Shown here piece after piece: positions 28,745-60,354 of a stretch of 64,000 nucleotides of DNA. The position numbers and the translations under genes are program-made. Below the pieces are notes generated by a model that worked only from the letters and a program-made list of their open reading frames with translations, was not told the origin of the DNA and searched no databases. Source of the DNA: a virus; the IMG/VR virus record IMGVR_UViG_3300027987_000212, positions 121,328 through 185,327 of that record; one strand, written 5' to 3'. How positions within the stretch are numbered: the stretch's first letter is position 1; each line of letters starts with the position of its first letter.

Positions 28745-28772
28745 TCAATAAGAAGCTGCGCACAGGGATAAG
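28745..28772 (+). promoter_or_regulatory. phage promoter motif TCAA-N15-AGGGATAAG
   Basis: Recurrent motif; precedes the first gene of the plus-strand arm. Confidence 0.7.
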
Positions 28773-28801
28773 TACCACGAGCAACCACTAGGACTAGAGG
28801 C

Positions 28802-29506
28802 ATGCAAAACCCCAACGCAACACTCATCATCGGCGACGTCACCCTCGTACAAGTAGAGGTACCCGAACGCCCCAATACTCGTGAGTGGCACTCACTGTTC
28901 GACACAGGCCCCCAAGTGAAGCTGGTCGAGCATCTGTCTGCCGTGCAGGGTGGTTGGGAAGCCGTAGTCCACCGCCCGGAAGACCCCAACCGGACGGTAG
29001 CCATGTTCGCCGGCTTGTACGAAGACCTACACCCGCCATTACTAGCCGCACTCAACGTAGGGTCAAAGACAGAGGAAGACCTCTCGAAGCGTGTGAAGCA
29101 AGTAATCAAAGCAGCCACCATGAAATGGACAGACAGCCCCACAGACGACCCTGCTGGCGGGCAGATGGGCGGGGCTCGCTATCTCAAGTCCTTCGAGCTG
29201 CCCATCTCCGCACTACCCACCGTGGTAACCGTAGAGCTGGACGACCCCATCATTGGACTGCGCTGTCGAGCCTGTCTTGCTCCCTACTACCTGACGCTAG
29301 AGAAAAGAAGCTTGCGCAGCAAGGATGGTATCCGCCAACTGACTGTGGGCGGCTGCAGCTTGTGCACCACATGCAACAAGTCCAAAGAATCAGCTACAAC
29401 GCTGCGCGCTCATGGCGTTTACCGAATGCCCGCACGTGTACGGGAGCACCTCATCGAAACAGTCAACCCAGTAGACGGGCCAGGAGTACTAAAACTGCCC
29501 AAGTAG
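28802..29506 (+). CDS. hypothetical protein with C-terminal Cys cluster
   Basis: CRAC and CSLCTTC motifs; GAGG RBS. Confidence 0.7.
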   Translation: MQNPNATLIIGDVTLVQVEVPERPNTREWHSLFDTGPQVKLVEHLSAVQGGWEAVVHRPEDPNRTVAMFAGLYEDLHPPLLAALNVGSKTEEDLSKRVKQVIKAATMKWTDSPTDDPAGGQMGGARYLKSFELPISALPTVVTVELDDPIIGLRCRACLAPYYLTLEKRSLRSKDGIRQLTVGGCSLCTTCNKSKESATTLRAHGVYRMPARVREHLIETVNPVDGPGVLKLPK

Positions 29507-29514
29507 GAGTAACT

Positions 29515-30471
29515 ATGCACAACGAAGAAAACAAAACCCCTGAGCAGGAAACCACCGCAGAAGAAGTCAAAGAGGTCACTCCGGCGGAAGTGACGTTGAC
29601 TGACAACGACGTCCCTGAAGACGCCAGCAGCACCATACCTAGCGGACCGCCCACCGATGCCACCGAAGTACTTGAGGCACCGATGCCCGAAGTGCCCGTC
29701 GGTGAATACCCAGACATCGTCGGACAAGGCGAGGACATCACCGTCATCGCAGATAACCCGCAACAAATGGTGCAAGCCCAACTCGACCTCATTCAAGCTT
29801 GCGACAGAAAGATAGCAGCAGCCAGGCAAGCACTTCAGGAACGTCAAGAAAACCTGGACGCAGCACTTCGGGGAAAGCTTCGTACCACCGTATGGCGAAG
29901 ACTCGTCAAAGAGGCAGAAGCCGCAGTCGTGTACTACGAGAAGATGAAGACTGCCTTCAGCCTAGGCTACTTCATGGTCCCCGACTTCCCCATCACCCTC
30001 ATCGCCATTCGTACCGACAACAAACCTGCTGCAAAACAAACACGCCTCGCTCACCGAGGACTGCAGGCCGAAGATGCGCTCAACCTACCCCGCGGCGAAG
30101 GACGCTACGTGCACCCAATCCCATCCGGCACTACCTACCAAGAGCGAACGTCACCCTCCACTGAACCGGCAAGATACACCCAGTACGTTACGACAACGGG
30201 TGACTACAAACCAGTAGACTTCCCAATGCGCTTGGTCAAACCTCGTATCGTCAACAACCTGACAGAAGCACTAGCCCGCAAAGTCTTCGATGAGGTAGGC
30301 ATCCTGCCTTCTTCAGTTGCTCCGGCTAGGCGTAGCCGAACTGGGCTCACCGCTGGCGCCTCAGCCAATCCAGACCCAATGGTCATTGGCCGCATCTTCC
30401 GCCAAGACCGCGGGCACCGCATCAGTGCCAGCTTCCTCATCACATGGTGGATTGACGCCAACACCCTATGA
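29515..30471 (+). CDS. hypothetical protein with acidic N-terminus and coiled coil
   Basis: AGGAG RBS before ATG 29515. Confidence 0.7.
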   Translation: MHNEENKTPEQETTAEEVKEVTPAEVTLTDNDVPEDASSTIPSGPPTDATEVLEAPMPEVPVGEYPDIVGQGEDITVIADNPQQMVQAQLDLIQACDRKIAAARQALQERQENLDAALRGKLRTTVWRRLVKEAEAAVVYYEKMKTAFSLGYFMVPDFPITLIAIRTDNKPAAKQTRLAHRGLQAEDALNLPRGEGRYVHPIPSGTTYQERTSPSTEPARYTQYVTTTGDYKPVDFPMRLVKPRIVNNLTEALARKVFDEVGILPSSVAPARRSRTGLTAGASANPDPMVIGRIFRQDRGHRISASFLITWWIDANTL

Positions 30472-30872
30472 AGCTCACAGACATCACGTCGCGCCCAGCG
30501 CATACTCGAGGGTCTGTTCTGGTCCAATCCCCCCGTGGAATTGTTACTGCTAGTGCTTCGGTCGTCGATGCAGACCCTGATAGTGACATCCCCTTCCTGC
30601 ATTGGTACGTGAATCGCGTACTGGTACAGGAAGGGTACAGGGGGCAGGGGTATGGTAGCGCTGCCGTCCAGCAGCTCTTGAAGGCTATCGAAAAAAGTAA
30701 CCAAGCATTCGAGGACATTCCCGTCATCGTTACCCCTGGCGGCTACAACAGCTCCCCTCAACGCCTGCACACCTTTTACACACGCCTCGGGTTTACTCTG
30801 TGGAAACCCCGCTGCCCAATTCTCATCTGGAGAGCTCATGAACCCACACAACACCTCTCCTGCGGAACCTGA
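30468..30872 (+). CDS. GNAT family acetyltransferase
   Basis: VLVQEGYRGQGYG acetyl-CoA motif A and FYTRLGF. Confidence 0.8.
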   Translation: MKLTDITSRPAHTRGSVLVQSPRGIVTASASVVDADPDSDIPFLHWYVNRVLVQEGYRGQGYGSAAVQQLLKAIEKSNQAFEDIPVIVTPGGYNSSPQRLHTFYTRLGFTLWKPRCPILIWRAHEPTQHLSCGT

Positions 30873-32206: not shown

Positions 32207-32215
32207 GACATTGCG

Positions 32216-32240
32216 AAGGCCGCACATCGTGGCCTTTTTT
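32216..32240 (+). terminator. Rho-independent terminator
   Basis: AAGGCC/GGCCTT stem followed by a T-run. Confidence 0.6.
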
Positions 32241-32249
32241 AGGGATAAG
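32222..32249 (+). promoter_or_regulatory. phage promoter motif GCAC-N15-AGGGATAAG
   Basis: Recurrent motif overlapping the terminator. Confidence 0.7.
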
Positions 32250-32282
32250 ACTTACGAACCCCAAGACCATTAGGTAACCACT

Positions 32283-35656: not shown

Positions 35657-35684
35657 GCAAGGCAGCCCTCCTTTCGGGGATAAG
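35657..35684 (+). promoter_or_regulatory. phage promoter motif GCAA-N15-GGGGATAAG
   Basis: Recurrent intergenic motif. Confidence 0.75.
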
Positions 35685-35719
35685 ACTGATGGAGAGAACA
35701 CCACCATCGGAGGGATACC

Positions 35720-36100
35720 ATGCACAACACTGACATAGCACTCGTTTCGACTCGTCGCCTCGTACGAATGGACCTACAAGCACTGCAGGACTACGTCCAG
35801 CTCACCGTAGTCTTGGCTTACGAGGACAGGCGCGCCACCTTTAAACTTCGCGTCGGCAAACACGAGCTCTGCACGCTAGACTCCATCCTAGCGTCGCTGC
35901 TTCTAACCCAAGCCTTCGAGATGACACCGACCCAGTGGACTCAACGCACGGGGACGCGCAGCGCAGACGAATTCCAACGCTGCAAACGCATGAGTGTCAC
36001 TCTGGCGGCGCTACTCGGCAGAGACCGCTTCGTACAACTGGTGCGAAGGTTCGATTCGCTGCCCCTGGGTACCGCCAAGCCCACGCGCTTGTTGAACTAG
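35720..36100 (+). CDS. hypothetical protein
   Basis: GGAGG RBS; 126 aa. Confidence 0.6.
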   Translation: MHNTDIALVSTRRLVRMDLQALQDYVQLTVVLAYEDRRATFKLRVGKHELCTLDSILASLLLTQAFEMTPTQWTQRTGTRSADEFQRCKRMSVTLAALLGRDRFVQLVRRFDSLPLGTAKPTRLLN

Positions 36101-40668: not shown

Positions 40669-40696
40669 ACAAGTCACCGCAAAAATGCGGGATAAG
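40669..40696 (+). promoter_or_regulatory. phage promoter motif ACAA-N15-CGGGATAAG
   Basis: Recurrent intergenic motif. Confidence 0.7.
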
Positions 40697-40714
40697 GCTA
40701 ATAGAGGAATACCC

Positions 40715-44547: not shown

Positions 44548-44769
44548 GTGGCCAAGAGAACGTACTGGCCCAAAACCCACTTTGCCGACCACACCACCGG
44601 TAAGACCTTCTGCGGGCTACCACTCACCTCGAAACGACTCACTACCGATTCTGAGGATGAGTGTAACTGCGACCGCTGCCAGGCGAGCGACACTCGTCGA
44701 ATGCTCGAGAGTTACCAACGTGAACAAGCAGCATTGCCGCCAGAGAAACGCGATAACTACGAAGGGTAA
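44548..44769 (+). CDS. small Cys/His protein
   Basis: H..FCG..CNCDRC motif; GGAGG RBS. Confidence 0.55.
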   Translation: MAKRTYWPKTHFADHTTGKTFCGLPLTSKRLTTDSEDECNCDRCQASDTRRMLESYQREQAALPPEKRDNYEG

Positions 44770-45627: not shown

Positions 45628-46439
45628 GCACTATTGATGCGAATTACACCGAAGTCATCACCGTGCGAAACGGTAAGTGCGTCCCAACAGCTCGCTACAG
45701 AAATCGTACAGGGGTGGGTACCGCTCTGCTGCAAGCCTTGAGGACTAAGTACGGGGACCGTATCAAGGCACGCCCCGAAACAACGGACCTCGTGCTGTTA
45801 CTGCGCTTCTGCGCAGCAGACTTGGCAGACGTACTCCTCCCTGAGGAGGCCAACTTGTTGACCTTCTGTATGCCTCGAAGCCTCCTGGCGCTGAAGGATG
45901 TGCCCGTCTTCATCGAGTCGGTCAGACGCGCAGAAGCAACCATTCTGTGGTCGCTAACCAACTACTGGCCTGACATCGTGACGCATATCGAGACTACGCT
46001 GCGCATGGACAACGCTGGAGAAGTACAGGCCTTCGGCCTGTACATTCCGCATATGCACGATGGGCAGCTACTGGAGAATCCTTGGGAGGTACCCATCAGA
46101 GACAACGAAGGACTCGTACAAATGAGGCCATACGATATTGGCCGCGACCATGCCCACCTGTTCGAGCCGATGCTTCCGCTAAAGCCCGCAGACGACCCCG
46201 CAGCCCCTACCAAGGAAACTACGTTCACCACTCTCACCATAGACAAGGTAGAGCACGTCTCCCTGGGACTACAGGAGCCGCCCGTATCCTGGGCTACGCA
46301 ACGTTGCTACCTCCTGCAGAGCACCTCTCCCGACTCCACTGCGCTGGACAGCTGTCACATACCAACCCACATCTTTGGGCGCAAGCTACTTCCACCAGGT
46401 ACACGTATCAAGTTAACAATCATGCCCGATGAGGGATAA
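45624..46439 (+). CDS. hypothetical protein
   Basis: ATGA-coupled 271 aa ORF. Confidence 0.65.
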   Translation: MSTIDANYTEVITVRNGKCVPTARYRNRTGVGTALLQALRTKYGDRIKARPETTDLVLLLRFCAADLADVLLPEEANLLTFCMPRSLLALKDVPVFIESVRRAEATILWSLTNYWPDIVTHIETTLRMDNAGEVQAFGLYIPHMHDGQLLENPWEVPIRDNEGLVQMRPYDIGRDHAHLFEPMLPLKPADDPAAPTKETTFTTLTIDKVEHVSLGLQEPPVSWATQRCYLLQSTSPDSTALDSCHIPTHIFGRKLLPPGTRIKLTIMPDEG

Positions 46440-46440
46440 G
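46413..46440 (+). promoter_or_regulatory. phage promoter motif TTAA-N15-AGGGATAAG
   Basis: Recurrent motif upstream of the Nudix gene. Confidence 0.65.
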
Positions 46441-46455
46441 TACTGTAGAGGACAC

Positions 46456-50135: not shown

Positions 50136-50140
50136 GCCCC

Positions 50141-50168
50141 GCAAATGAGGTAGTAATCCGGAGATAAC
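50141..50168 (+). promoter_or_regulatory. phage promoter motif GCAA-N15-GGAGATAAC
   Basis: Recurrent motif directly after the terminator. Confidence 0.7.
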
Positions 50169-50187
50169 AGTAATGAAGGAGTACTCC

Positions 50188-50688: not shown

Positions 50689-50699
50689 GCCCAGTAACC

Positions 50700-50708
50700 A
50701 GAGACAAG
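50700..50708 (+). promoter_or_regulatory. degenerate promoter motif AGAGACAAG
   Basis: Variant of the GATAAG box after a terminator; no matching upstream element. Confidence 0.35.
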
Positions 50709-50722
50709 TACTACGCAGCCCT

Positions 50723-51943
50723 ATGCCCAAAAACTACCTATTCCAACCCACCAGCACAGTCGCAGAGCTTCGCCAGTTGGTATCCCTACATGCCTGGCTA
50801 CTCATGAGCGCTATCGATGAAAACTTGGAGAACTCGATGCATACGTTCTCCAAGCTCTTGAAAGCGTACGCACCCCCAGACGCCCAAGAAGCGGGCAAGC
50901 CTGTTCGATACACCTTTGGGCTAACCAACATGGAGATGTCGCGGCTGTTGGTCAACATCAGCATGACAGCTGCAGACAAGGCTAAGAAGCACGACTTCAT
51001 CGACGAAGACGAGTACGACTACACAGTCGAAGCCTTCTCTACGATGCTAGCGACTACTATCTCTAGCGTGTCTATGCTGCTCCAGTACGCCTCCAACGCA
51101 CTGTGGTTCGAAGAGGGCATGCCAACAATTGAAGTTGGGCACAAACTGGCCGCATCTCTGATGACAACCAGGCTGACCGAGGAGGTCACTAGGGACGCGC
51201 ACTTACCGTTTCACGCCTTCTCCGTCGTCCTGCCAGACAATCTCGTCTTCATCGACACCCGTGAAGGTATCTGCGATGCGCGCTATGCCATGCTAGCGCG
51301 GCTACGTCACGTCATCAGTGACCAGTACACTTACGGTTGCTTCATCGTGGGTAGCAATTCCATGGCGACCTGCCTGCATGGGCATTACCCAACTCTCTGG
51401 GATGCGTACACGCACATGGGCGTAGCATTTGAGGGGGACCCCTTCCAACTGGAGATGGCAGACAACGACACGCGCAACGCCATCTTGGGGCGGCGTTTGC
51501 TCATCAACATCAGTCTGATGATGACTGACCCCGCCAACTACAAGAAGGTAGGCAAGGGTCACGCGCCCTACGAGGCGGGCATCTCTCGAAGCCGGCTGCG
51601 GGGCATCGAGCGCCCTACCAAACGCGTATTCAAATTGATTCGCCCCGTACGTCACGACTTCCGAGACCTAGTACGCGCCTACGCCCGCGGTGAGGCCAAA
51701 AAACTCAGCGTACAAGGCTTCATCGCGGGTCACATCAAGTACAACCAACCGTACGGGCCCGGCAGTACCCTCCGCAAACGAATCTGGATTGAACCCTACT
51801 GGCGAGGTCCAGAAGACGCCCCCATCGCTCTACCTTCACCCAGAAATGCTTGCTGTCGTAGCAGCACACGAAGCCCTCGGCATTACCGTGTCCATCGGGC
51901 AACTACCGCTCAGCCATGGAGACCTCAGCCCATTGGATGGTAA
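50723..51943 (+). CDS. hypothetical protein
   Basis: C-terminal AGH..NQPYGPG..LRKRIWIEPYWRGP motif. Confidence 0.7.
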   Translation: MPKNYLFQPTSTVAELRQLVSLHAWLLMSAIDENLENSMHTFSKLLKAYAPPDAQEAGKPVRYTFGLTNMEMSRLLVNISMTAADKAKKHDFIDEDEYDYTVEAFSTMLATTISSVSMLLQYASNALWFEEGMPTIEVGHKLAASLMTTRLTEEVTRDAHLPFHAFSVVLPDNLVFIDTREGICDARYAMLARLRHVISDQYTYGCFIVGSNSMATCLHGHYPTLWDAYTHMGVAFEGDPFQLEMADNDTRNAILGRRLLINISLMMTDPANYKKVGKGHAPYEAGISRSRLRGIERPTKRVFKLIRPVRHDFRDLVRAYARGEAKKLSVQGFIAGHIKYNQPYGPGSTLRKRIWIEPYWRGPEDAPIALPSPRNACCRSSTRSPRHYRVHRATTAQPWRPQPIGW

Positions 51944-52397
51944 CTTCCGCATCGATTGGGAGCTACGCACACTGTACATCTCCGCAACCACCCTCACGCA
52001 GCGGCCCCACGACAGAGCAGCCATACTCATCCACGAGATTGGGCACCTTTGTGCATGTCCAGAAGCACCAGAATTCAGCGACGAGTACGACTTCCTCGGC
52101 TGGGAGTGGCAATACGCGAAACTACTTGGCATCGAACAGAAGTGGCGAGAGTCTGTATCTCGCTACGGACTAGGTCAAGGCTCTGACCCTGACCTACACG
52201 GTACCGACCTCATCCCACCAGACTCCAGCCTCATGAACGAGATACTGCGAGAACGGCGGACGTACGCACGAGATACGGGCCTACTCAACGCACACTTTCA
52301 ACCAATCAGTCTACTAACCAAACGCCCAATCACTCGTCAAGTAATTAACCAAGCCCTGCTATCTCTCGTACAGGAAACCCATGCAGTACCGGTATGA
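51846..52397 (+). CDS. HExxH putative metallopeptidase
   Basis: ILIHEIGH..SDEYDFLGWE; start uncertain. Confidence 0.6.
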   Translation: MLAVVAAHEALGITVSIGQLPLSHGDLSPLDGNFRIDWELRTLYISATTLTQRPHDRAAILIHEIGHLCACPEAPEFSDEYDFLGWEWQYAKLLGIEQKWRESVSRYGLGQGSDPDLHGTDLIPPDSSLMNEILRERRTYARDTGLLNAHFQPISLLTKRPITRQVINQALLSLVQETHAVPV

Positions 52398-52785
52398 GCA
52401 CGACTATCTGAACTTCCACAAGCTGCCACAACAATGGGCTGACGTCCACACTGACTTCAAACGTTATGCCTCACGCTTCATGCGCCGAGCGGGTTACAAC
52501 TCTGTGGTGTGTTGCTACGGAGGAAACGTCGTAGGCGTATTCCGCTATTACCTGGGGCGACTTACTGGACAAGACCGCATGAGCATACGTGGTTGTGGTC
52601 TCTACGTACTACGCCTGCACCGGCGCCGAGGCATAGGCATGCAGCTACTGGCTCAAGCCATTCAGAAGCACAACCCGCGCACAATGCACCTATCTCCAGC
52701 CGAGACAGCCAACGTACGTAGCCTCTACAGACGCCTCGAAGAGGCGTACCCTCGCGTCACGTTCATCTACACGGAGGACCAATGA
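52381..52785 (+). CDS. GNAT family acetyltransferase
   Basis: LYVLRLHRRRGIGMQLL motif A. Confidence 0.75.
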   Translation: MQYRYEHDYLNFHKLPQQWADVHTDFKRYASRFMRRAGYNSVVCCYGGNVVGVFRYYLGRLTGQDRMSIRGCGLYVLRLHRRRGIGMQLLAQAIQKHNPRTMHLSPAETANVRSLYRRLEEAYPRVTFIYTEDQ

Positions 52786-53186
52786 GCCTGAACCTAAAGG
52801 AGCTACGCTTCGAAGCGTCCATGAGCAGCAGCTTCAAACCACCGCCCTCCTTGTGGCGCGGTGTCAACGGAGACTTCAAGCGATACGCCCCACAGTTCGC
52901 GTCAAATGACCTACCTGTCGATGGAGCGACTGCGTGCTACCTGGGTCCCCGACTCATCGGAGTATTCCGCTACTGCGAAGCCGGCGGCGGATTAAGTCTC
53001 TTCGACGCAGGCATGTACATCCTCAAACCGTACCGACGCAACGGTATCGGGTTGAAGCTGCTCATCACCACGATGGACACCATCAAACCCATCAGCATCG
53101 CGCTGACCCCAGTTAACCCAGCGGGCACTGCTCTAGCGGAGAAGTTCGCCAAGCTATACCCACGCCAAACCAACATCCTGAAGTAG
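52782..53186 (+). CDS. GNAT family acetyltransferase, paralog of the upstream gene
   Basis: MYILKPYRRNGIGLKLL; shares DFKRYA and GVFRY with 52381..52785. Confidence 0.75.
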   Translation: MSLNLKELRFEASMSSSFKPPPSLWRGVNGDFKRYAPQFASNDLPVDGATACYLGPRLIGVFRYCEAGGGLSLFDAGMYILKPYRRNGIGLKLLITTMDTIKPISIALTPVNPAGTALAEKFAKLYPRQTNILK

Positions 53187-53213
53187 CAAAAACGTCCTAA
53201 CTTCGGAGATAAG
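53186..53213 (+). promoter_or_regulatory. phage promoter motif GCAA-N15-GGAGATAAG
   Basis: Recurrent motif ending 6 nt before the tRNA-like RNA. Confidence 0.75.
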
Positions 53214-53219
53214 ACTACT

Positions 53220-53373
53220 GAGAGAGACCTTCTGTCTGCATTACCGTGTAGGCAGCGGGTACATGGTAGTAGCAACGCGGCCGATGGCCCTTACGGAACC
53301 TCCGGTGGACTAGGTCACCATTGGTTCAGCTGTGCTACTTCTCGAGTTCAAATCTCGGGCTCTCTCACTACCA
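53220..53373 (+). ncRNA. tRNA-like structured RNA (~150 nt)
   Basis: GAGAGAG/CTCTCTC acceptor-like stem, CTCGAG-TTCAAAT-CTCGGG T-arm, two long internal helices, 3' ACTACCA. Confidence 0.6.
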
Positions 53374-53394
53374 GTCCAACCACCGGAGAAAATC

Positions 53395-53844
53395 ATGCAC
53401 CTAACCGCAGTACCCGAACAGTCCAACCCATACCTCAGCCTGCTAACCAAACACCTCTACATGATAACCAAGGCAGCCGTATCACCGAGCGATGATACTG
53501 GCCGCGCTGCCATCGCAGTACAAGTCCTAAGGCTAGTGGACTCCTTCCAATTAGAGGACCACTATGCGCCTGACGAAGAGTACCGCCAGGCCATCACGTC
53601 AGCAGACCATTGGTGGTCTTGCGTGTGGGCCTGTGTCGACCTGGCTCTGGCAGCCGTAGACGTGCGCCCCGCACTGCTCGACCAACCAGCAGTACAAGAA
53701 GCCATACAAGGGCTCGACGAGCTCATGATGCGGCACGTCAAGGTGGACACCGCCTTCCCCCTCAACCGAAGCGACCTACGTCTGCTAGGTATGCTGCACA
53801 ATGTCTGCAAGAATCGCGGTTACACGGTAGGGTTCAAAGCATGA
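53395..53844 (+). CDS. hypothetical protein
   Basis: GGAG RBS before ATG 53395. Confidence 0.6.
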   Translation: MHLTAVPEQSNPYLSLLTKHLYMITKAAVSPSDDTGRAAIAVQVLRLVDSFQLEDHYAPDEEYRQAITSADHWWSCVWACVDLALAAVDVRPALLDQPAVQEAIQGLDELMMRHVKVDTAFPLNRSDLRLLGMLHNVCKNRGYTVGFKA

Positions 53845-54104
53845 CTCCCCGCCTACTCGAGCTTCAAGTGGAACTACGTGCCGCAGGAGCGGCACTACCA
53901 GAGGAGCCAGTAGTAGCAAGATTCCGTGAACCCCTGCCCACCGACAGTCCCTTCATCCGCGCGGTGCTCACACTTGCCAAAGAAGAAAGCACCATGACTG
54001 ACTTCCACCTTGGCTACCTCGACGGCCGTCGAGAACTTCAGAACTGGAAGCTCAGCCCGCTATACGAGCGAGGCTACCGGGCAGGACGCACGCAGAGTAA
54101 GTAG
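53841..54104 (+). CDS. small hypothetical protein
   Basis: ATGA-coupled; GYLDG..YERGY motif. Confidence 0.55.
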   Translation: MTPRLLELQVELRAAGAALPEEPVVARFREPLPTDSPFIRAVLTLAKEESTMTDFHLGYLDGRRELQNWKLSPLYERGYRAGRTQSK

Positions 54105-54105
54105 G

Positions 54106-54133
54106 AGAAAGGCCCCGAAGGGCCTTTCTTTTT
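54106..54133 (+). terminator. Rho-independent terminator between convergent genes
   Basis: AGAAAGGCCC-CGAA-GGGCCTTTCT followed by TTTT. Confidence 0.85.
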
Positions 54134-54144
54134 GCTGCCTGTTC

Positions 54145-54675
54145 CTACGCTTCTCGTACGCGTGCAAGCGCAGCGATGGCCGTACCCAGAGCTGCAATCA
54201 CGTCGTTCTGACGCTTGAACGGAGGGTCCTCCAACAACTCCGTATAGGGGTCGTCGACAGGAGTCGCGCAGCCAGCATTTTGCCGCATCTCGATGAGGTC
54301 ACGCCGATTACGCACCTCGCGCTGCAACTGTTCCTCGAGTAGCCCCAACACATGCTGAATGGGCGGCATCCCCCGCTTCTCTGGGCATGCGGGGTCGATG
54401 GAACCTACGCGCCCGAGACGACAGTACTCTCGAAGCAGTCCTCCGAGTGCCTCATCCTTGGTACCACCCTCTACAAACACTTCTCGGAATGGGAGTGAGG
54501 CAACGAACACCACCGTGTCCCCCTCACCCACATTAGTGGTTACCTTGGGCGCCCAACTACGCACGTTGCACTCCCAGTTCTCGCGTGCGCGTTTCTCCAA
54601 CTCTGCGTTGATAATGGCCATCGCCGCAGACTCTCCGTACCGCACACCTTGCTTCGCACTACCTTGCTGTTCCAT
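54145..54675 (-). CDS. hypothetical protein with HicB-like segment
   Basis: FVASLP..VFVEGGTKDEAL resembles the HicB N-terminal fold. Confidence 0.5.
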   Translation of the reverse strand: MEQQGSAKQGVRYGESAAMAIINAELEKRARENWECNVRSWAPKVTTNVGEGDTVVFVASLPFREVFVEGGTKDEALGGLLREYCRLGRVGSIDPACPEKRGMPPIQHVLGLLEEQLQREVRNRRDLIEMRQNAGCATPVDDPYTELLEDPPFKRQNDVIAALGTAIAALARVREA

Positions 54676-54745
54676 GGTTCCTCTTTCTGCGCCAGTAACC
54701 CGTAGGCCTGGCACGAGCAGAAGAGTACAAGTCGGGCAGCGCCGG

Positions 54746-55288
54746 TCAAGGCTCTTCGCACAACAAGTCGCGCAAGCTATGTACCGCCAACGAGTACAGC
54801 TGTGATACCCGAGTATCCGTTACACCGAAGACCCTCGCCAAGTCCCTGTTTGTACGTCCATTGAGCCGCCCGACGACTACCTCACGAAGTCGGTCTGGCA
54901 AACGTGCAGCAGCGCGCACAAGGTCCTCCTGAAGCAACCCCTCAAGCACGTCGTACTCCGGGGCGGCCATCCCCTCGAAGACCTCATCCGGGTCAAACAC
55001 GGACCGTTGCGGCATATAGCCTATCCGCCTAGCCCGCCGGGGCGCCCAGTCTTGTGCCCGCAGCTCATCCAGTACGGCCCCCGCTACACGTGTGGCACAG
55101 TAGTTTCGGAAGAACTCATGCTCAGGTTGGCGTATCACCGCCTGCCAAGCACCGAACCGCCCAGCACTGAGCAAGTCTTCCTTAGGGGCGTACCGCCCAG
55201 TCCTGCAGTGGATACGCTCCACAATCTTGTCGACCATGGGCAGCATCTCCTCGAACAGTTTCATCTGTTCTGCTCGAGACAACTCCAT
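54746..55288 (-). CDS. FliA/WhiG (sigma-28)-like RNA polymerase sigma factor
   Basis: Region 2: EDLLSAG..G..A and GAVLDELRAQDWAPR; region 4: LPDRLR..DLARVFGVTDTRVSQL. Confidence 0.88.
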   Translation of the reverse strand: MELSRAEQMKLFEEMLPMVDKIVERIHCRTGRYAPKEDLLSAGRFGAWQAVIRQPEHEFFRNYCATRVAGAVLDELRAQDWAPRRARRIGYMPQRSVFDPDEVFEGMAAPEYDVLEGLLQEDLVRAAARLPDRLREVVVGRLNGRTNRDLARVFGVTDTRVSQLYSLAVHSLRDLLCEEP

Positions 55289-55300
55289 ACCAACTAACGT

Positions 55301-55744
55301 AGCCTGCTTCGTGCGACATCGAAACCCTACTAGTTCCTACGCGGTTCTAGCCTGAGCTTCATCCTCGCTTACCCGTCCATCTCATCCGGCCAGCACCAGT
55401 AATTACCGTGCGCCGGCTGCGACGCTCGATGAACTACCGAAGATTCGCGGATGAGCTGTTGACCGTAGGTGTCCTTTCGCTTCACGTCCCCTGAGACCCA
55501 GACAAGGTTGCAGCATGCCTCGATAACAGCGGTGTGTATCGGCGGGTCTTGAGCTGCCAAGACCTCAACACTCCGTTGCTGAGCCGAGATGTGTGCCTCC
55601 CTGTCATTGCCACAGTGCCACTGAGTAACCAGTGCGGGACGCCGAATCCCATGCGGGTCGACGAAGATGACAACTACGCCTTCTGAGTATGCCTTTTCCA
55701 TTCTGACTCACTTCCTGCGGCTTCGGTGCCGCACGAAGCAGGCT
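55301..55744. repeat. 15-bp perfect inverted repeat flanking one gene
   Basis: AGCCTGCTTCGTGCG at 55301-55315 and its reverse complement at 55730-55744. Confidence 0.8.
55369..55701 (-). CDS. hypothetical protein
   Basis: 110 aa ORF upstream of the sigma gene. Confidence 0.65.
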   Translation of the reverse strand: MEKAYSEGVVVIFVDPHGIRRPALVTQWHCGNDREAHISAQQRSVEVLAAQDPPIHTAVIEACCNLVWVSGDVKRKDTYGQQLIRESSVVHRASQPAHGNYWCWPDEMDG

Positions 55745-55749
55745 CCTCC

Positions 55750-55758
55750 ATGATAGCA
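55750..55758 (-). promoter_or_regulatory. extended -10 element TGCTATCAT, possible host primary-sigma promoter
   Basis: Matches TGnTATAAT with one mismatch; oriented toward the sigma operon. Confidence 0.4.
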
Positions 55759-55770
55759 CCAATCCTCGAC

Positions 55771-55798
55771 GCAGGAAAGGCGCACTCTACGGGATAAG
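55771..55798 (+). promoter_or_regulatory. phage promoter motif GCAG-N15-CGGGATAAG
   Basis: Recurrent intergenic motif. Confidence 0.7.
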
Positions 55799-55818
55799 AA
55801 TGACGAAGGAGTAAGACC

Positions 55819-56397
55819 TTGACCAAGCCCACCCCCACTGAAACCCACCCACTACTGCTTGAACTACGCAGTCTCGTAAACTCCAATGAAGTACCCACAC
55901 TCTACTTACTGGAGCAACTCACTTACCCTGACAACCTGCCGCACATCATCTCCTCATCAGGCATACGCAAAGCAGCTATCATAGCGCTCAGCATGAGTGA
56001 GGCGCCCGGTGACAGGTACCCTAAACTATTCCCCCCAAGAACGTGGGCGCCCCGTGCCAACGCGTACACCTTAGGCGTACTGCGTGCGTACAACGACCAA
56101 CTGAGCGACAATGCGGGCTACATCCGTACCGATAAGAACACCCTCTGGTGCCCACAACACGCCTTAGCAGATGGTTGCCGACAACTACTCAGACAGCACG
56201 GTAAGCTGGCAGAGAACAGTGCTCCGCACCTAGTTGAGTTCCCGCCCAGCTTTCGGCGAGACGAGCTAAACATGGAACTACGCCGGGGACAACTAGCGCC
56301 AGACATTGCACTACTCGTACACTGCCAAATAACCGACCAACCGGCACAGCACTTGTACTACTCCGTGTGGGGTGTACTTGAAGATGGGGTACTATGA
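55819..56397 (+). CDS. hypothetical protein
   Basis: AAGGAG RBS; TTG start. Confidence 0.6.
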   Translation: MTKPTPTETHPLLLELRSLVNSNEVPTLYLLEQLTYPDNLPHIISSSGIRKAAIIALSMSEAPGDRYPKLFPPRTWAPRANAYTLGVLRAYNDQLSDNAGYIRTDKNTLWCPQHALADGCRQLLRQHGKLAENSAPHLVEFPPSFRRDELNMELRRGQLAPDIALLVHCQITDQPAQHLYYSVWGVLEDGVL

Positions 56398-56999
56398 AAG
56401 GTTACGCCGCAACCGTCGACTTCAGTCCAACGCGCCAAAAGCTTTGGAGCACCGCAACAACTTTGGTCCAGAGTGTCCCGGAGGAGTGGGAGGCTCGTTG
56501 TCACGAGTTAACCCGCGCCATCGCGGAAGTGCTACCAAGCGCTGTACCCGAGTTACTTACCGTACAAGACGGCATGCTCGGCCCGCAGGAGCACAGTTGG
56601 CTATGGGTAGGCCTACCGCCACCGAAGATAGCCTGCAGACACATCGGATGCGACTGGACGGCAGTGTACCGCACAGGCAAGTGGGACGAGCGCCTGAACA
56701 ACTACCCAGCTTACTGCGACTGGCACATCGGGTTGTACCGTTCGGAGGACCACTACTCACCCATCCTGAACGAGGGGGCTACCATCCTAGACACGTACTT
56801 CCCCGGAGCGCTCCCTCCGGTCGTGCTGCTCTCACAACATCGAGGGTTACACCTAGCTCGCGCTGCGTATTGCCCAGGACCAGACAGGGTCGACATCAAC
56901 CCTACCATACTCAGCAAAATGGTGTTCCTCTTTCGCGCGGTACTAACCGCTAACCCCGACCTCACATTCCAGCCACGTGAAAGGCCATTACGTCGATGA
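56394..56999 (+). CDS. hypothetical protein
   Basis: ATGA-coupled 201 aa ORF. Confidence 0.6.
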   Translation: MKGYAATVDFSPTRQKLWSTATTLVQSVPEEWEARCHELTRAIAEVLPSAVPELLTVQDGMLGPQEHSWLWVGLPPPKIACRHIGCDWTAVYRTGKWDERLNNYPAYCDWHIGLYRSEDHYSPILNEGATILDTYFPGALPPVVLLSQHRGLHLARAAYCPGPDRVDINPTILSKMVFLFRAVLTANPDLTFQPRERPLRR

Positions 57000-57358
57000 A
57001 CAACTCTACCAAGCTCTTCGACGGGGACTACGCTGCAACTCGTCAAGCAGTCGCAGCGCACATACTAGCGCACATGGACGAAACCTCCCCACAAGGATTG
57101 TACGCAGTCAGTACCGAGTGCAGCGCGATGATTAAGCTGTTCTCTCGACATACCACCCTCGGACGAGCCCTACGAGAACTAGTCACACCTGAAGAAGTCG
57201 CTGAGTTCGATGCCGCCCTCCAAACCATCCTAACCTTTGCCGACAGCAAGGCACGTGCAATCCCACTACGCCTACTCGGCAAAATCGAAGAGGCGAGACA
57301 ACTCGAGAACCAAGCTGACGCAGCTTACGAAACACTGCCAACTGAGTGGCGCTGGTAA
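56996..57358 (+). CDS. hypothetical protein
   Basis: ATGA-coupled 120 aa ORF. Confidence 0.6.
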   Translation: MNNSTKLFDGDYAATRQAVAAHILAHMDETSPQGLYAVSTECSAMIKLFSRHTTLGRALRELVTPEEVAEFDAALQTILTFADSKARAIPLRLLGKIEEARQLENQADAAYETLPTEWRW

Positions 57359-57373
57359 CCAAGGAGCAACACA

Positions 57374-58177
57374 ATGCAATGCAAGTTCTGCAACAACAAG
57401 TTGGAAGAGGGGGTAGACCCGCGAGGCTGGGGGACGCTGGCGCTCTCCATCGTAGGGGGGAATGACGTCGTAGGGTCAATCTGCCCCACCTGTCTGAGCA
57501 TCGGACGGATAGAGGCGATGCTCGCCGACACAGCCGAGGAGCCCAAGAATACCTCCTCAGACTTTCGGGACGGCGTAGCCCACGCCACGCACAAACTCGA
57601 GAAGATGCTAGCAGCTACGAATCTCCCGAAGTCCTTCATTATGCCGGTACCCCCGCTATTCCTCTCCCCACCTGACATGTGGTCGCGCACAACTGGCGCA
57701 CTGTTGGAGGAGCTCTCGGAGGACGAGGTACGCGACATTGAGGCGGTCGTAGAGATGTGCAACAAAGTAGCCCGAGGCTACTACGAACCCATCATCGAAC
57801 AGCTCTACCTCGACTTCGTTGCTCTCTACACACAACACAACAATCCGCGCATCTCTTTGACCGACGCCTCCCCCGAGAGCCCACTCGGCAAAGCCCTGAA
57901 GGAGCACCAAGATGGTGTCACAGGCGTCGTCAAAGACATCCACACGACCTTACGCCAGCTAGAACAGTGCGTGGCCCGTCTCGAGGGGAGGTATTCCCCC
58001 AGCGACGCCATCTCGTGGCACGAAGACTTTCCCCCACATTGGGCCTGCTACATGGACCTGCTCGCCGTGACTTACCCAGATGCCATGAAGGCCATGCAAC
58101 GTCGTCCAGGCAGACTGACCATGACGTTTACTCCTACCGGCCCAATCCCACCACAACGAATCGAGTACGCACCATGA
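57374..58177 (+). CDS. hypothetical protein with N-terminal zinc ribbon
   Basis: CKFC and CPTC motifs; AAGGAG RBS. Confidence 0.65.
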   Translation: MQCKFCNNKLEEGVDPRGWGTLALSIVGGNDVVGSICPTCLSIGRIEAMLADTAEEPKNTSSDFRDGVAHATHKLEKMLAATNLPKSFIMPVPPLFLSPPDMWSRTTGALLEELSEDEVRDIEAVVEMCNKVARGYYEPIIEQLYLDFVALYTQHNNPRISLTDASPESPLGKALKEHQDGVTGVVKDIHTTLRQLEQCVARLEGRYSPSDAISWHEDFPPHWACYMDLLAVTYPDAMKAMQRRPGRLTMTFTPTGPIPPQRIEYAP

Positions 58178-59676
58178 CTACTGCACATGCCTGCTACTGC
58201 AAAAAACCCCACTGTACTGCACCGCGCTCCAAAGCATGCCTGAACCGGGCCATCGAGACATTCCTCACTAACCTCGTCGAAGTGAGCATGCAGCCACTGC
58301 CCGAAGAAAGCGTGGAGCAGGAGACTCCTGGGGCACCAGATACAACTGAGGGTAACTTCAGCGTACAAGTCACCTCCGGCAAAGTACCCGATAGCTCTGA
58401 GGTAACTACCACCATCAGGATAGCTTGGTGCCCTTACTACAAGCAAGGGCCAATAGCGATGTTGGTAGGTACCCCGCCTAACGAGGAACTCTTCCACGAA
58501 GTACTCGCAGAGCGAGCCAGACTACGCGAAGAGGTAGCTAGGCTCAACCGCACACACGACGAGTGGTACCCGCAACTGGTAGGCGCACTCGGGTTTAACC
58601 CGCACAGCACACAACACATCCTCGAAACCATCGTAAACCACGCGGTGCAAGCTCAAGAAGCTTGGAAAGAGGTAACCAGTACTACGGGCATGTACTACGA
58701 ACGGGTAACGTCACCTGAGCAACTGCCTCAATCTATCGTAGTTCTCGACTACCCAGACCCACTCGTGCCATGGGTTGCCTGTCAGTTCTGTAAGAAACTA
58801 TATCCCCATCATCATGTGCGCAGAGTACCGAGACCGGAGCACTGCCCCACGTGCCACTCCCACGACCCAGCCCTTCATCCAGCGATGCAGCATGGCGGCG
58901 AGGTACAGCCGTGTTCCAATACTTGGCATCAGTACACTTCCCCGCTACGGATGCTACAAGCGCAAGCGGCAACGCACACGAGAGTAGAGACAGACACAGA
59001 GCTGCTCCTAACTAAGGTGGGTAAACTCGAGGCAGACGCTGAACGCATCGCTACGGCACTCGGAGCAGCAATAGTCACCCCCAATGGGGTAGCGATTGCC
59101 GACGTGGAAGACCAGCTACGCCTCATCAATCTCCTGAAGAGGTATGTGCCGCGCGACCACGCCGCCCTGCGTCGTTACTTCAATTGCACCGGTGGCATCA
59201 CCGGGCGAACGCCTTCTACACAGCCCAACCTCAGCAACACCCCTGCTACCGAGAACGCTGGCACCAACCTCCCGCTATCCACGCAAGAACGCGAAGAGCT
59301 CGAAGACTGGCGAGCAGTCTTCTGTCTGGAGTTTGCCCCAGAGCACCACACCGCAGGCCCCTTCTCTACCTGGCCACACCTACTGGCAGCCAACATCCAC
59401 GCCTTACGAGAAGAGGTGAAGACAGCACGCGAGAATCGCGTCTCCCCACACCCTTTACTCGAGCTAGAGCACTGGCGTGCCGTGTTCCGCCTCGAGTATG
59501 CCGTCGAAAGTGACTACCTGGAATCCTACAACCAATGGCCACGACAGCTGCAACGCTATGCAAACCAAGCACGCGAAACGATGGAAAAGATGCGGGCAGA
59601 GCAGCATCGCCTGCAGGAGTACGCAGCTCAAGCACGCGCAGAACTGGAGAACATGCGGACTGGAGACAAAACATGA
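58174..59676 (+). CDS. mosaic coiled-coil protein with internal duplication
   Basis: ATGA-coupled start 58174; LExWRAVFxLE..WP repeated twice; Cys clusters. Confidence 0.65.
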   Translation: MTTAHACYCKKPHCTAPRSKACLNRAIETFLTNLVEVSMQPLPEESVEQETPGAPDTTEGNFSVQVTSGKVPDSSEVTTTIRIAWCPYYKQGPIAMLVGTPPNEELFHEVLAERARLREEVARLNRTHDEWYPQLVGALGFNPHSTQHILETIVNHAVQAQEAWKEVTSTTGMYYERVTSPEQLPQSIVVLDYPDPLVPWVACQFCKKLYPHHHVRRVPRPEHCPTCHSHDPALHPAMQHGGEVQPCSNTWHQYTSPLRMLQAQAATHTRVETDTELLLTKVGKLEADAERIATALGAAIVTPNGVAIADVEDQLRLINLLKRYVPRDHAALRRYFNCTGGITGRTPSTQPNLSNTPATENAGTNLPLSTQEREELEDWRAVFCLEFAPEHHTAGPFSTWPHLLAANIHALREEVKTARENRVSPHPLLELEHWRAVFRLEYAVESDYLESYNQWPRQLQRYANQARETMEKMRAEQHRLQEYAAQARAELENMRTGDKT

Positions 59677-59927
59677 AACGCATCGGCTGGTGGCTGCTCA
59701 CCTATAGCGTTCCGCTCATGACCCTGTTGCTGGGCGGCACACTAGCGCTAGTTGCTCGGCGGGATTGGCTCGAGCACAACCCAGACCTCGCTGCCATCAA
59801 GTGCCTGGGGGTACTCATATTACTCGCACACGGATACATCGGCTACCACATCGTGCGACGGCACAAGCAACGCATGGACGAGCTCAGAGCAATGGAGGAA
59901 AGATGGTACGAACACGGAACAGACTGA
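59673..59927 (+). CDS. two-TM small membrane protein
   Basis: Two hydrophobic helices. Confidence 0.6.
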   Translation: MKRIGWWLLTYSVPLMTLLLGGTLALVARRDWLEHNPDLAAIKCLGVLILLAHGYIGYHIVRRHKQRMDELRAMEERWYEHGTD

Positions 59928-60187
59928 GTTGGCTCTACTTCTTCCCGGTGCTGTCCTTCTTCCTCAGCGCTGTATTTGCTGCCGTAGCCTACCGGTACTA
60001 CCAAGAAGGGAGGTGTCTTTTGGTGGCGGTCAACAGCCTCGCCAGCGTATCTCTCCTATTCTTCGTCATAAGCTTTCGCTGGTCCATTCGACGACTCATC
60101 GCCGTTAACCGAGCATACCAAAAACAGGTCACTGACCTAGAAGGGCGCCCACATGAGGATGATACTGATTACCGAGAGTCGCCTTGA
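59903..60187 (+). CDS. two-TM small membrane protein
   Basis: GGAGG RBS; two hydrophobic helices. Confidence 0.6.
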   Translation: MVRTRNRLSWLYFFPVLSFFLSAVFAAVAYRYYQEGRCLLVAVNSLASVSLLFFVISFRWSIRRLIAVNRAYQKQVTDLEGRPHEDDTDYRESP

Positions 60188-60326
60188 CGAGTTGTTCGAC
60201 GCAGCTCTGGCCACCATCGCCGAGAGACTCAATGGGCACGCGCCTACCAAAGACCCAAACGGTACCGTGGTCTACTACGTACGCAACCTTCAGAAGGCAG
60301 TGAAGGACGGGCCACTCGGTACTTAG
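60153..60326 (+). CDS. small hypothetical protein (57 aa)
   Basis: Manually read ORF MRMILITESRLDELFDAAL..GPLGT*, below the ORF-track cutoff. Confidence 0.4.
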   Translation: MRMILITESRLDELFDAALATIAERLNGHAPTKDPNGTVVYYVRNLQKAVKDGPLGT

Positions 60327-60327
60327 T

Positions 60328-60354
60328 GCAGTCCATCAGGATAACGGGGATAAG
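60328..60354 (+). promoter_or_regulatory. phage promoter motif GCAG-N14-GGGGATAAG
   Basis: Recurrent intergenic motif. Confidence 0.7.

What the first reader, a model, noticed from the sequence alone, without database searches (positions are those of the whole stretch)
28745..60354. Bipartite phage promoter with sigma-28 geometry heads the accessory cassettes
Seen: nine sites at gene-cassette starts with NG(G/A)GATAA(G/C). Eight have an N(C/T)A(A/C/G) tetramer exactly 15 nt upstream: TCAA 28745, GCAC 32222, GCAA 35657, ACAA 40669, TTAA 46413, GCAA 50141, GCAA 53186, GCAG 55771. The site at 60328 has N14. Known: the sigma-28 consensus is TAAA-N15-GCCGATAA. Inference: a divergent sigma-28-type regulon probably read by the FliA-like sigma encoded at 54746..55288. 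Alternatives are a host sigma-28 or a phage RNA polymerase encoded elsewhere.
Basis: partly seen in the sequence, partly recalled or inferred. Interest (0 to 1): 0.85.

Follow-up and report, generated by a model that had tools for sequence, protein, structure and literature searches.

The report
Phage-specific promoter, read by another sigma

Summary
All nine sites and their upstream tetramers lie at the stated coordinates. The motif is the most intergenic-enriched word in the whole 185-kb genome: about 27 sites against 1.7 expected.

It is a two-part promoter, gCAA-N16-G(G/A)GATAA(G/C). Its register is exactly that of sigma-28 promoters: -35 block at -34..-31, A at -11, and a conserved pyrimidine/purine pair at -1/+1.

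The same architecture is over-represented in five 186-196-kb metagenomic relatives. Lineage variants occur in Salmonella phage Arash (GGTATAAG) and Vibrio phage D69 (TGTTATAAG).

The assignment to the FliA-like sigma at 54746..55288 is not supported. That protein is a FliA-derived sigma lacking region 3. It is absent from three essentially complete relatives and from Arash, all of which keep the promoter.

Every member instead has a ~260-aa group-3-like sigma (homologue of Arash gp10, a virion protein; here 28.9 kb before the window start) and a phage beta-beta' RNA polymerase. That sigma gene sits behind a motif site in G000, G001 and Arash.

Best reading: promoter of a phage-encoded holoenzyme driving non-structural genes. 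No transcript data exist.

The scan noted the same system earlier on other genomes.

The parts
28745..28779 (+). Promoter 1: TCAA-N16-GGGATAAG, predicted +1 G at 28779; heads ORF starting at ATG 28802
   Evidence: (PWM 23.5 bits)
32222..32256 (+). Promoter 2: GCAC-N16-GGGATAAG, predicted +1 G at 32256; heads ORF starting at GTG 32283. The -35 block overlaps the T-run of an upstream terminator hairpin (about 32214-32241)
   Evidence: (24.8 bits)
35657..35691 (+). Promoter 3: GCAA-N16-GGGATAAG, predicted +1 G at 35691; heads ORF 35720-36100; starts 1 nt after the stop of the upstream ORF
   Evidence: (27.1 bits)
40669..40703 (+). Promoter 4: ACAA-N16-GGGATAAG, predicted +1 A at 40703; heads a 69-codon ORF from ATG 40715
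   Evidence: (22.7 bits)
46413..46447 (+). Promoter 5, the weakest: TTAA-N16-GGGATAAG, predicted +1 A at 46447; overlaps the 3' end of ORF 45624-46439; heads a NUDIX hydrolase gene (ATG 46456)
   Evidence: (11.9 bits)
50141..50175 (+). Promoter 6: GCAA-N16-GAGATAAC, predicted +1 G at 50175; heads ORF from ATG 50188; directly follows an intrinsic terminator at 50107-50135 (GGGCCCGG-GAAA-CCGGGCCC plus T-run)
   Evidence: (28.3 bits)
53186..53220 (+). Promoter 7: GCAA-N16-GAGATAAG, predicted +1 G at 53220; no ORF start for more than 110 nt.
   Evidence: (28.6 bits); no tRNA or Rfam match
55771..55805 (+). Promoter 8: GCAG-N16-GGGATAAG, predicted +1 G at 55805; heads ORF from TTG 55819; lies in the divergent gap next to the minus-strand operon that holds the small sigma
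   Evidence: 24.7 bits
60328..60361 (+). Promoter 9: GCAG-N15-GGGATAAG (spacer one base shorter), predicted +1 G at 60361; heads a 64-codon ORF (ATG 60386) followed by a GNAT acetyltransferase gene
   Evidence: (26.7 bits)
44730..44764 (+). Candidate weak variant site (GCGATAAC, -35 GCAT one base closer), 16 nt before an ATG with a Shine-Dalgarno sequence
   Evidence: 12.0 bits; about 4 sites expected by chance genome-wide at this score
58379..58413 (+). Candidate variant site GCAA-N16-GAGGTAAC
   Evidence: 14.6 bits
54746..55288 (-). Small sigma factor (180 aa): FliA/WhiG-derived regions 2 and 4, no region 3.

Best explanation
The motif is a sigma-dependent promoter specific to this phage family. 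Its -35 block is gCAA at -34..-31. A 15-16-nt spacer of free sequence follows. The extended -10 is (c)G-G/A-G-A-T-A-A-G/C at -15..-7, with the A at -11 as the presumably flipped base. Transcription is predicted to start at the conserved purine, preceded by a pyrimidine, 7 nt after the 8-mer. The promoter drives the non-structural, mostly ORFan cassettes on the + strand and a few islands elsewhere. It does not drive the head, tail and packaging genes. The most likely reader is a holoenzyme encoded entirely by the phage. Its core would be the beta-beta' RNA polymerase (gene about 16.4-22.9 kb in genome coordinates). Its sigma would be the ~260-aa group-3-like sigma homologous to Arash gp10 (genome 91,694-92,476, minus strand, outside the window). 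In phage Arash these proteins are abundant in virions, so the enzyme may be injected and start transcription without the host. Shown here: the motif, its statistics, geometry, orientation, family-wide conservation, and which sigma genes co-occur with it.
For: The motif is real and strand-specific. A position-weight scan of the genome gives 29 sites at 14 bits or more against 1.7 expected. GGGATAA is the most intergenic-enriched 7-mer, with 15 of 18 copies intergenic.

The two-part structure is replicated in independent genomes. The strict pattern GCAA-N16-GGNATAAG occurs 5, 10, 4 and 8 times in G005, G006, G002 and G004, against 0 in reversed-pattern controls and about 0.07 expected.

Lineage variants exist in cultured relatives. 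Arash has about 34 intergenic GGTATAAG sites, nearly all on the strand of its non-structural genes. D69 has TGTTATAAG 13 times on one strand, 0 on the other, with controls 0 and 1.

The register is identical to sigma-28 promoters. Y/R at -1/+1 holds in 9 of 9 window sites. At position +14 from the first G, 22 of 29 sites genome-wide have G.

Two sites follow terminators directly. Sigma-70-type consensus sites are depleted in the cassette region: 1 against 4.9 +/- 1.6 and 1 against 6.6 +/- 2.4, none on the coding strand. The -7 base is G or C at every exact-core site, and T only in the one variant GGGATAAT; sigma-70 needs T there.

The gp10-like sigma is found in all of them. Its gene lies behind a motif site in G000 (genome 92,504), G001 (72,344) and Arash (11,588). 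A syntenic GG.ATAA(G/C) match lies 0.3-1.5 kb upstream in all 15 nearer metagenomic relatives (L046-L060); the more distant loci L061-L068 have none there.

The gp10-like family matches sigma factors by profile: E = 5e-15 to SigA and 5.6e-15 to WhiG. By fold, the top hits are B. subtilis SigD, SigB and WhiG.

Arash virions contain RNA polymerase beta, beta' and gp10 (PMC10585845). The N-terminal 970 aa of this phage's large ORF match Arash gp206 and bacterial rpoB.
Against: There is no transcript evidence of any kind; no RNA run was listed (reported only as a blank). The assignment to the gp10-like sigma rests on co-occurrence and parsimony across a single phage lineage, so it is confounded by shared descent. 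A further unrecognised specificity factor cannot be excluded. This phage's own gp10-like protein scores below the curated sigma-70 cut-off: TIGR02937 gives 26.8 bits against 42.9. The fold model is of medium confidence (pLDDT 76.6, TM-scores about 0.3 because the domains are loosely arranged). Virion packaging is known only for Arash, and its authors allow for contamination by abundant proteins. The small sigma keeps the FliA residues that read G-12 and C-13 (R67 and D74, matching R80 and D87). G000 has G at -12 in all its exact sites, so the small sigma might also use these promoters in this particular phage. No promoter class for the structural genes was found, so the temporal scheme is incomplete.
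Confidence: 0.6

Rival explanations
1. One reading: the promoters are read by the small FliA-like sigma encoded at 54746..55288, with host or phage core polymerase.
For: The protein is clearly FliA-derived: FliA_WhiG 2e-21, and a profile against solved structures gives FliA 1e-34 and WhiG 2e-22. It keeps the FliA residues that contact -12 and -13. The promoter has sigma-28 geometry and a GATAA core. In G001 and G004 the gene lies downstream of motif sites on the same strand, which would fit autoregulation.
Against: It is absent (profile E <= 1) from G005 and G006 (100% complete) and G002 (99%), and tblastn finds no significant match in Arash. All four keep the promoter in many copies. It lacks region 3, which in sigma-28 contacts the extended -10 and the template strand, yet -14 and -13 are among the best conserved positions here. 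Its own operon in this phage has no motif copy.
Confidence: 0.12
2. A host sigma factor (host sigma-28 or the primary sigma) with host RNA polymerase reads the motif. The sites would be ordinary early promoters for the host enzyme.
For: Resemblance to the sigma-28 consensus in spacing and in GATAA. Many phages use host polymerase for early genes.
Against: The same -10 core, ATAAG with G at -7, is kept in phages of very different hosts: Salmonella, Vibrio and unknown environmental hosts. T at -7 and TTG at -35 are absent, and sigma-70-type matches are depleted. The CC of GCCGATAA is replaced by GG, and TAAA by GCAA. A lytic phage that carries its own polymerase and sigma depending on a conditionally expressed flagellar sigma is implausible (inference).
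Confidence: 0.07
3. The phage polymerase reads the motif with some other, unrecognised specificity factor, or on its own. The gp10-like protein would have another role, for example late transcription.
For: Non-canonical phage polymerases (phiKZ, AR9) use non-sigma specificity subunits (PMC7598289 and PMC9209446, listed). This phage's gp10-like protein is below the curated sigma cut-off. About half of the genes are ORFans.
Against: Two-part -35/-10 geometry with a fixed 16-nt spacer is the signature of a sigma with regions 2 and 4. The gp10-like family matches sigma regions 2-4 over its whole length.
Confidence: 0.12
4. Not a promoter: an RNA-level signal (processing site, leader or translation element) or an operator for a DNA-binding regulator.
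For: The conserved block continues into the predicted transcript (+1..+3) and often runs into a Shine-Dalgarno-like GAAGGAG. Actinophage cluster K start-associated sequences begin with a similar GGGATAGGAG (recalled from memory, not tested).
Against: A second conserved block sits at a fixed distance upstream across a spacer of free sequence. Sites come directly after terminators. The motif is asymmetric and strictly co-oriented with genes. Where the real Shine-Dalgarno sequence lies further downstream the conserved block stays with the motif, not with the start codon; distance to the start varies from 26 to more than 180 nt.
Confidence: 0.06

Closest known systems
Sigma-28 (FliA/WhiG/SigD) promoters, TAAA-N15-GCCGATAA
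   Same: Identical register: the -35 tetramer at -34..-31, a 15-nt spacer before an 8-nt extended -10, the GATAA core at -12..-8 with A-11, and no T at -7 (P. aeruginosa fliC promoter structure, PMC12784957). The candidate reader is a three-domain group-3-like sigma whose best fold hits include SigD and WhiG.
   Different: The -35 block is GCAA, not TAAA. Positions -14/-13 are GG or GA, not CC. Position -7 is conserved as G or C, whereas it is not conserved in sigma-28 promoters. The -12 base varies by lineage (G here, T in Arash and D69, any base in G001-G006). The signal is not read by a cellular FliA and is not linked to flagellar genes.
Promoters of phage-encoded sigma factors used with host core polymerase (T4 gp55 late, SPO1 gp28 and gp33/34, phiEco32 gp36)
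   Same: A phage-specific consensus, unlike host promoters, that marks one class of phage genes and is read through a phage sigma (PMC2988021, PMC13401047 and PMC12276001, listed; consensus sequences from general knowledge).
   Different: In those systems the core enzyme is the host's. Here the phage also encodes the core (beta-beta'), and in the relative Arash both core and sigma are in the virion. The motif marks non-structural rather than late genes.
Virion RNA polymerase early promoters of N4, phiKZ and AR9
   Same: An injected phage polymerase transcribing early genes from a phage-specific signal; host-independent early transcription (PMC4496689, PMC7598289 and PMC5312081, listed).
   Different: N4 uses a single-subunit enzyme and hairpin promoters. 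The phiKZ/AR9 enzymes lack a canonical sigma and use short AT-rich or template-strand signals. Here the signal is a classical two-part sigma-type promoter. Virion delivery is shown only for Arash.
Salmonella phage Arash and Vibrio phages D69/D148/D181
   Same: Same family: RNA polymerase beta about 34-35% identical, a gp10-like sigma, and the same promoter core ATAAG with the same downstream Y-G.
   Different: Their papers and records describe no promoters (0 occurrences of 'promoter' in PMC10585845). Arash has GGTATAAG and a weaker tCCA-type -35 block; D69 has TGTTATAAG. Arash carries a second, RpoD-like sigma (gp196) instead of the small FliA-like one.

Membership tests
Sigma-70-family two-part promoter (general) | Two conserved blocks separated by a spacer of fixed length and free sequence | tested here: met
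   CA at one offset in 10/22 (G000), 10/13 (G001) and 9/34 (Arash) sites, with no conservation in between. Strict pattern: 27 copies in four relatives, 0 in controls.
Sigma-70-family two-part promoter (general) | Located upstream of genes and co-oriented with them, with pyrimidine/purine at -1/+1 about 7 nt after the -10 block | tested here: met
   Nine of nine window sites are co-oriented, eight of them in gene gaps (the core of 46433 overlaps the last bases of ORF 45624-46439); Y then R at positions +13/+14 in 9/9; start codons mostly 26-45 nt downstream.
Sigma-70-family two-part promoter (general) | Transcripts start there | not testable with these tools
   No RNA run holds this sequence.
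Sigma-28 (FliA) promoter class | Geometry: -35 tetramer, 15-nt spacer, 8-nt -10 | tested here: met
   GCAA at -34..-31 and GATAA at -12..-8 in the fliC register.
Sigma-28 (FliA) promoter class | Consensus TAAA and GCCGATAA | tested here: not met
   2 of 4 and 5 of 8 positions match. Canonical TAAA-N14-16-NCGATAA is absent from five relatives, and G000 has a single copy, at genome 32,209-32,235.
Sigma-28 (FliA) promoter class | Read by a FliA/WhiG-family sigma | tested here: inconclusive
   The true FliA-derived small sigma is dispensable in the family. The likely reader is only loosely FliA-like: Arash gp10 gives 6.7e-12 to a FliA/WhiG model, far below the cut-off; fold hits are SigD, SigB and WhiG.
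FliA/WhiG sigma family (for the protein at 54746..55288) | Score above the curated cut-off and regions 2, 3 and 4 present | tested here: not met
   TIGR02479 gives 76.8 bits against a cut-off of 189.6. The alignment to FliA covers residues 23-110 and 157-245 only, so region 3 is missing. It passes only the general sigma-70 model TIGR02937 (56.3 against 42.9).
Sigma-70 family (for the gp10-like protein, genome 91,694-92,476) | Recognisable regions 2, 3 and 4 | tested here: met
   A family profile matches SigA at 5e-15, WhiG at 5.6e-15 and S. aureus SigB over positions 3-225. Foldseek gives sigma factors only, probability 1.0. The single sequence is below the TIGR02937 cut-off (26.8 against 42.9).
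Virion-delivered RNA polymerase systems | Polymerase and specificity factor present in the virion | not testable with these tools
Shown by proteomics for Arash only (PMC10585845).
Actinophage cluster K start-associated sequences | Motif 3-8 bp before the start codon and containing the ribosome-binding site (recalled from memory) | tested here: not met
   The distance to the start codon is 26-45 nt or more, and a separate Shine-Dalgarno sequence is present.

The most novel reading that the evidence does not exclude
A whole family of about 180-195-kb phages, including cultured Salmonella and Vibrio phages, runs its early or non-structural programme with a fully phage-encoded, virion-delivered bacterial-type holoenzyme. 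This would consist of a beta-beta' core plus a group-3-like sigma, recognising sigma-28-geometry promoters whose -14..-12 bases co-evolve with each lineage. The small FliA-derived sigma without region 3, found only in some members, would then be an accessory factor aimed at something else, possibly host sigma-28 promoters or the host anti-sigma FlgM.
Probability: 0.45. Interest if true: 0.75.

Novelty: new variant of a known kind. Interest (0 to 1): 0.6.

Why it matters
Phage-encoded multisubunit RNA polymerases studied so far (phiKZ, AR9) have abandoned canonical sigma factors and classical promoters. This family appears to keep a sigma and a classical two-part promoter while encoding the core enzyme itself. 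That would make it a minimal, self-contained bacterial-type transcription system.

The consensus given here, with its predicted start site, allows three things:
- The non-structural regulon can be annotated in every member.
- A concrete template exists for in vitro work.
- The idea can be tested directly in Salmonella phage Arash and in the oyster Vibrio phages.

Lineage-specific changes at -14..-12 (GGG, GGN, GGT, GTT), next to a conserved ATAAG, offer a natural experiment on how a sigma reads the upstream edge of the -10 element. The report also corrects a tempting but probably wrong pairing of promoter and sigma.

Tried and rejected
- No RNA holder was listed for window 49500-58500. Only two DNA runs hold a small share of its words, so no start sites could be mapped.
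- Megablast of 24 kb against phage records found nothing.
- tblastn with the small sigma found only four weak faecal fragments.
- A single-sequence search for loci with the gp10-like sigma found nothing. The alignment-based search worked.
- A second promoter class for the structural genes was sought with k-mer enrichment and a home-made EM. It gave only low-information stop-codon-like words. GTAAACT (8 of 16 copies intergenic) and CTAAAA words gave no coherent set.
- Canonical sigma-28 promoters that the small sigma might read: one site in G000 and none in five relatives.
- The G000 subclass with RGTA in place of GCAA (five sites) was tested as a possible target of the small sigma. It is absent from relatives with or without that sigma, so it is treated as -35 variation.
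- No tRNA and no Rfam family lies in the cassette region.
- A literature search for the 8-mers returned only unrelated primers. No paper on promoters of Arash-like phages was found.
- No complex prediction was run. A pass for a sigma-core pair would mainly reflect likeness to solved holoenzymes and would not tell the two sigmas apart.
- GGNATAAG is not enriched in Vibrio phage D69. Its variant TGTTATAAG was found by reading the gene gaps.


Full report
**Setting.** The window is the last 64 kb of a 185,327-bp viral contig of 58% G+C. Its 144-bp terminal repeat marks a complete, circularly closed assembly. Window positions 1-28.7 kb carry head, tail and packaging genes on the minus strand, including a large terminase. 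From 28.8 kb to the end, and on across the contig junction to about 10 kb, lies a block of small, mostly ORFan genes on the + strand.

- GRGATAAS occurs 10 times against 3.4 +/- 1.9 expected; 0 of 100 shuffles reach 10.
- Nine copies are on the + strand at the stated places. Each of the listed tetramers sits exactly 20 nt before the first G of the 8-mer (19 nt at 60347).
- Genome-wide there are 22 + 6 exact copies.
- GGGATAA is the most intergenic-enriched 7-mer, with 15 of 18 copies intergenic.
- A weight-matrix scan gives 29 sites at 14 bits or more against 1.7 expected.
- The upstream block is significant on its own: CA at -19/-18 from the first G in 10 of 22 sites, P = 7e-7, or 3e-5 after correcting for 42 offsets.

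Conservation continues through A-M-Y-N-N-Y-G-A-R after the 8-mer.

**Anatomy in promoter coordinates.** The recent P. aeruginosa sigma-28 open-complex paper numbers the fliC promoter as (-15)GCCGATAA(-8) and (-36)TCTAAAG(-30). It reports A-11 flipped and -7 neither conserved nor flipped (PMC12784957). Laid on that register:
- GATAA is at -12..-8.
- The two upstream G/R are at -14/-13, and the final G/C is at -7.
- GCAA is at -34..-31, exactly where TAAA sits.
- The conserved pyrimidine-purine pair falls at -1/+1.

All nine window sites have Y at -1 and G (7) or A (2) at +1. So the claim of "sigma-28 geometry" is correct to the base. The consensus itself is not sigma-28: GCAA for TAAA, GG for CC.

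**Other promoter-like properties.**
- All window sites are co-oriented with the genes.
- Start codons with Shine-Dalgarno sequences follow 26-45 nt after the first G in most cases.
- Two sites come directly after strong hairpin-plus-T-run terminators, at 32214-32241 and 50107-50135.
- Sigma-70-type consensus matches are depleted across 28.7-64 kb. Two were found against about 11.5 expected, both on the non-coding strand.
- T at -7, which sigma-70 requires, occurs only in the single variant GGGATAAT.
- The site at 53206 has no ORF start for more than 110 nt. No tRNA or Rfam family matches there.

**Conservation in relatives.** The small sigma led to G001, a 195.6-kb complete contig with a 36% identical sigma. 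I fetched it whole. Its enriched intergenic words are ATAAGAG and relatives. Its sites read GCAA-N16-GG(A/C/G)ATAAG-AG, with GCAA in 10 of 13.

The polymerase gene led to Salmonella phage Arash and Vibrio phages D69, D148 and D181, at 34-35% identity over 950 aa.
- Arash has about 34 intergenic GGTATAAG-(T/A)AA-RR-TGTAA sites, almost all on the strand of its non-structural genes. Its upstream block tCCA is weaker but in the same register.
- D69 has TGTTATAAG 13 times on one strand and never on the other.

An alignment of the second sigma found 23 loci in 145-205-kb viral contigs. In the seven nearest loci (L046-L052, one of them G001 again) the two-part motif recurs at syntenic positions while spacer sequences differ. 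The strict pattern GCAA-N16-GGNATAAG occurs 4-10 times per genome in G002, G004, G005 and G006, with none in reversed controls.

Thus ATAAG at -11..-7 and Y-G at -1/+1 are family-wide. Positions -15..-12 are lineage-specific. In the lineages where I tabulated the upstream block (G000, G001, Arash) it keeps its position; the block was not examined in D69, and for G002, G004, G005 and G006 it was part of the search pattern.

**Which sigma reads it.** This phage has two sigma-like genes.

- It has Pfam regions 2 and 4.
- Its best NCBIfam hit is FliA_WhiG, at 76.8 bits against a cut-off of 189.6.
- As a three-sequence profile it hits FliA structures at 1e-34 in two stretches that skip FliA residues 111-156, which are region 3.
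- It keeps the equivalents of FliA R80 and D87.

*The second sigma* (genome 91,694-92,476, minus strand, 260 aa):
- tblastn with Arash gp10 found it.
- The family profile matches sigma regions 2-4: SigA 5e-15, WhiG 5.6e-15, SigB over nearly full length.
- An AlphaFold model (pLDDT 76.6) retrieves only sigma factors, led by B. subtilis SigD, SigB and WhiG.

*The decisive comparison.* A profile of the small sigma finds it in G001 and G004. It finds nothing at E <= 1 in G005 and G006 (100% complete) or G002 (99%). tblastn finds nothing significant in Arash. The general sigma model finds only the gp10-like gene in G005 and G006. Yet those genomes carry the promoter in many copies.

The gp10-like sigma is present in every member. 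Its gene lies behind a motif site in G000 (directly), in G001 (as fourth gene of the operon) and in Arash. A syntenic GG.ATAA(G/C) match lies 0.3-1.5 kb upstream in all 15 nearer metagenomic relatives, L046-L060.

In G001 and G004 the small sigma gene itself lies downstream of motif sites. In this phage its operon has no motif copy but does have a TGCTATCAT extended -10-like word.

In Arash, mass spectrometry found polymerase beta as the most abundant virion protein. It also found beta' and gp10 (100% coverage, 467 spectra). The authors suggested a role in early transcription (PMC10585845).

**Model and its limits.** The motif is most likely the promoter of a phage-encoded holoenzyme, beta-beta' core plus the 260-aa sigma. 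It drives non-structural genes, possibly from the moment of injection. The argument from presence and absence is drawn from one lineage, and no transcript data exist.

I found no promoter class for the structural genes in this phage, so the temporal programme is unresolved. The role of the small sigma is open. Canonical sigma-28 promoters are essentially absent from these phage genomes, so its target may lie in the host. That is speculation.

**Relation to earlier notes of this scan.** One note (e1-5805558) gave me the lead to the polymerase gene and to Arash. After my reading was fixed, a word search showed that follow-ups on other genomes (e1-5877005, e1-5748831) had reached a similar picture: own polymerase and sigma, family-specific promoters on non-structural genes. 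So this system has been noted before in the scan on other DNA. I found no published description of the promoter.

Noticed in passing
window 54746-55288 (-): The small sigma is a FliA derivative that has lost region 3 but keeps the residues that read G-12 and C-13 in sigma-28. The phage genomes hold almost no canonical sigma-28 promoters, so its target may be host flagellar promoters or the host anti-sigma. It occurs in G000, G001 and G004 only.
   Followed up: partly
genome 32,209-32,235 (+), i.e. L031:12209-12235, outside the window: A single near-perfect sigma-28 consensus, TAAA-N15-GACGATAA (about 0.03 expected by chance), lies in a divergent region about 180 nt upstream of a motif site and a + strand gene. 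It could be a target of the small sigma. Nothing comparable exists in five relatives.
   Followed up: partly
window 53220-53373: A gene-free stretch starts exactly at the predicted +1 of the promoter at 53206. ARAGORN and Rfam find nothing.
   Followed up: partly
genome 32405, 32972, 76629, 83471, 92504 (L031, L032): Five G000 sites carry RGTA instead of GCAA at -34..-31 with the same -10; one of them heads the gp10-like sigma gene. The subclass is absent from five relatives. No explanation.
   Followed up: partly
L035-L038 (phage Arash) at about 26.7, 66.4, 100.2, 138.5 and 173.3 kb: Five copies of an AT-rich repeat of roughly 80 bp or more (TATATA-rich, with inverted flanks CCACCTCAAG/CTTGAGGTGG) lie in gene gaps. 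This may be a dispersed regulatory or mobile element.
   Followed up: no
L037 (Arash 128083, 137630), L038 (173498); L042 (D69 20.2-41.2 kb): A second word, CTAAAAT(A) in Arash and CTAAAATATAG in D69, sits 25-35 nt before start codons of structural genes. It is a candidate late promoter class; no clear counterpart exists in G000.
   Followed up: partly
window 28802-30471 and 57757-59676: Two long ORFs (528 and 639 codons) overlap or compete with shorter ORFs and score poorly for coding potential in my crude gene caller. The gene models here need proper calling.
   Followed up: no
window 55702-55818 (-): Upstream of the minus-strand operon that holds the small sigma there is a TGCTATCAT word (extended -10-like) followed by a 6-bp hairpin. 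This may be a host-type promoter for that operon.
   Followed up: no
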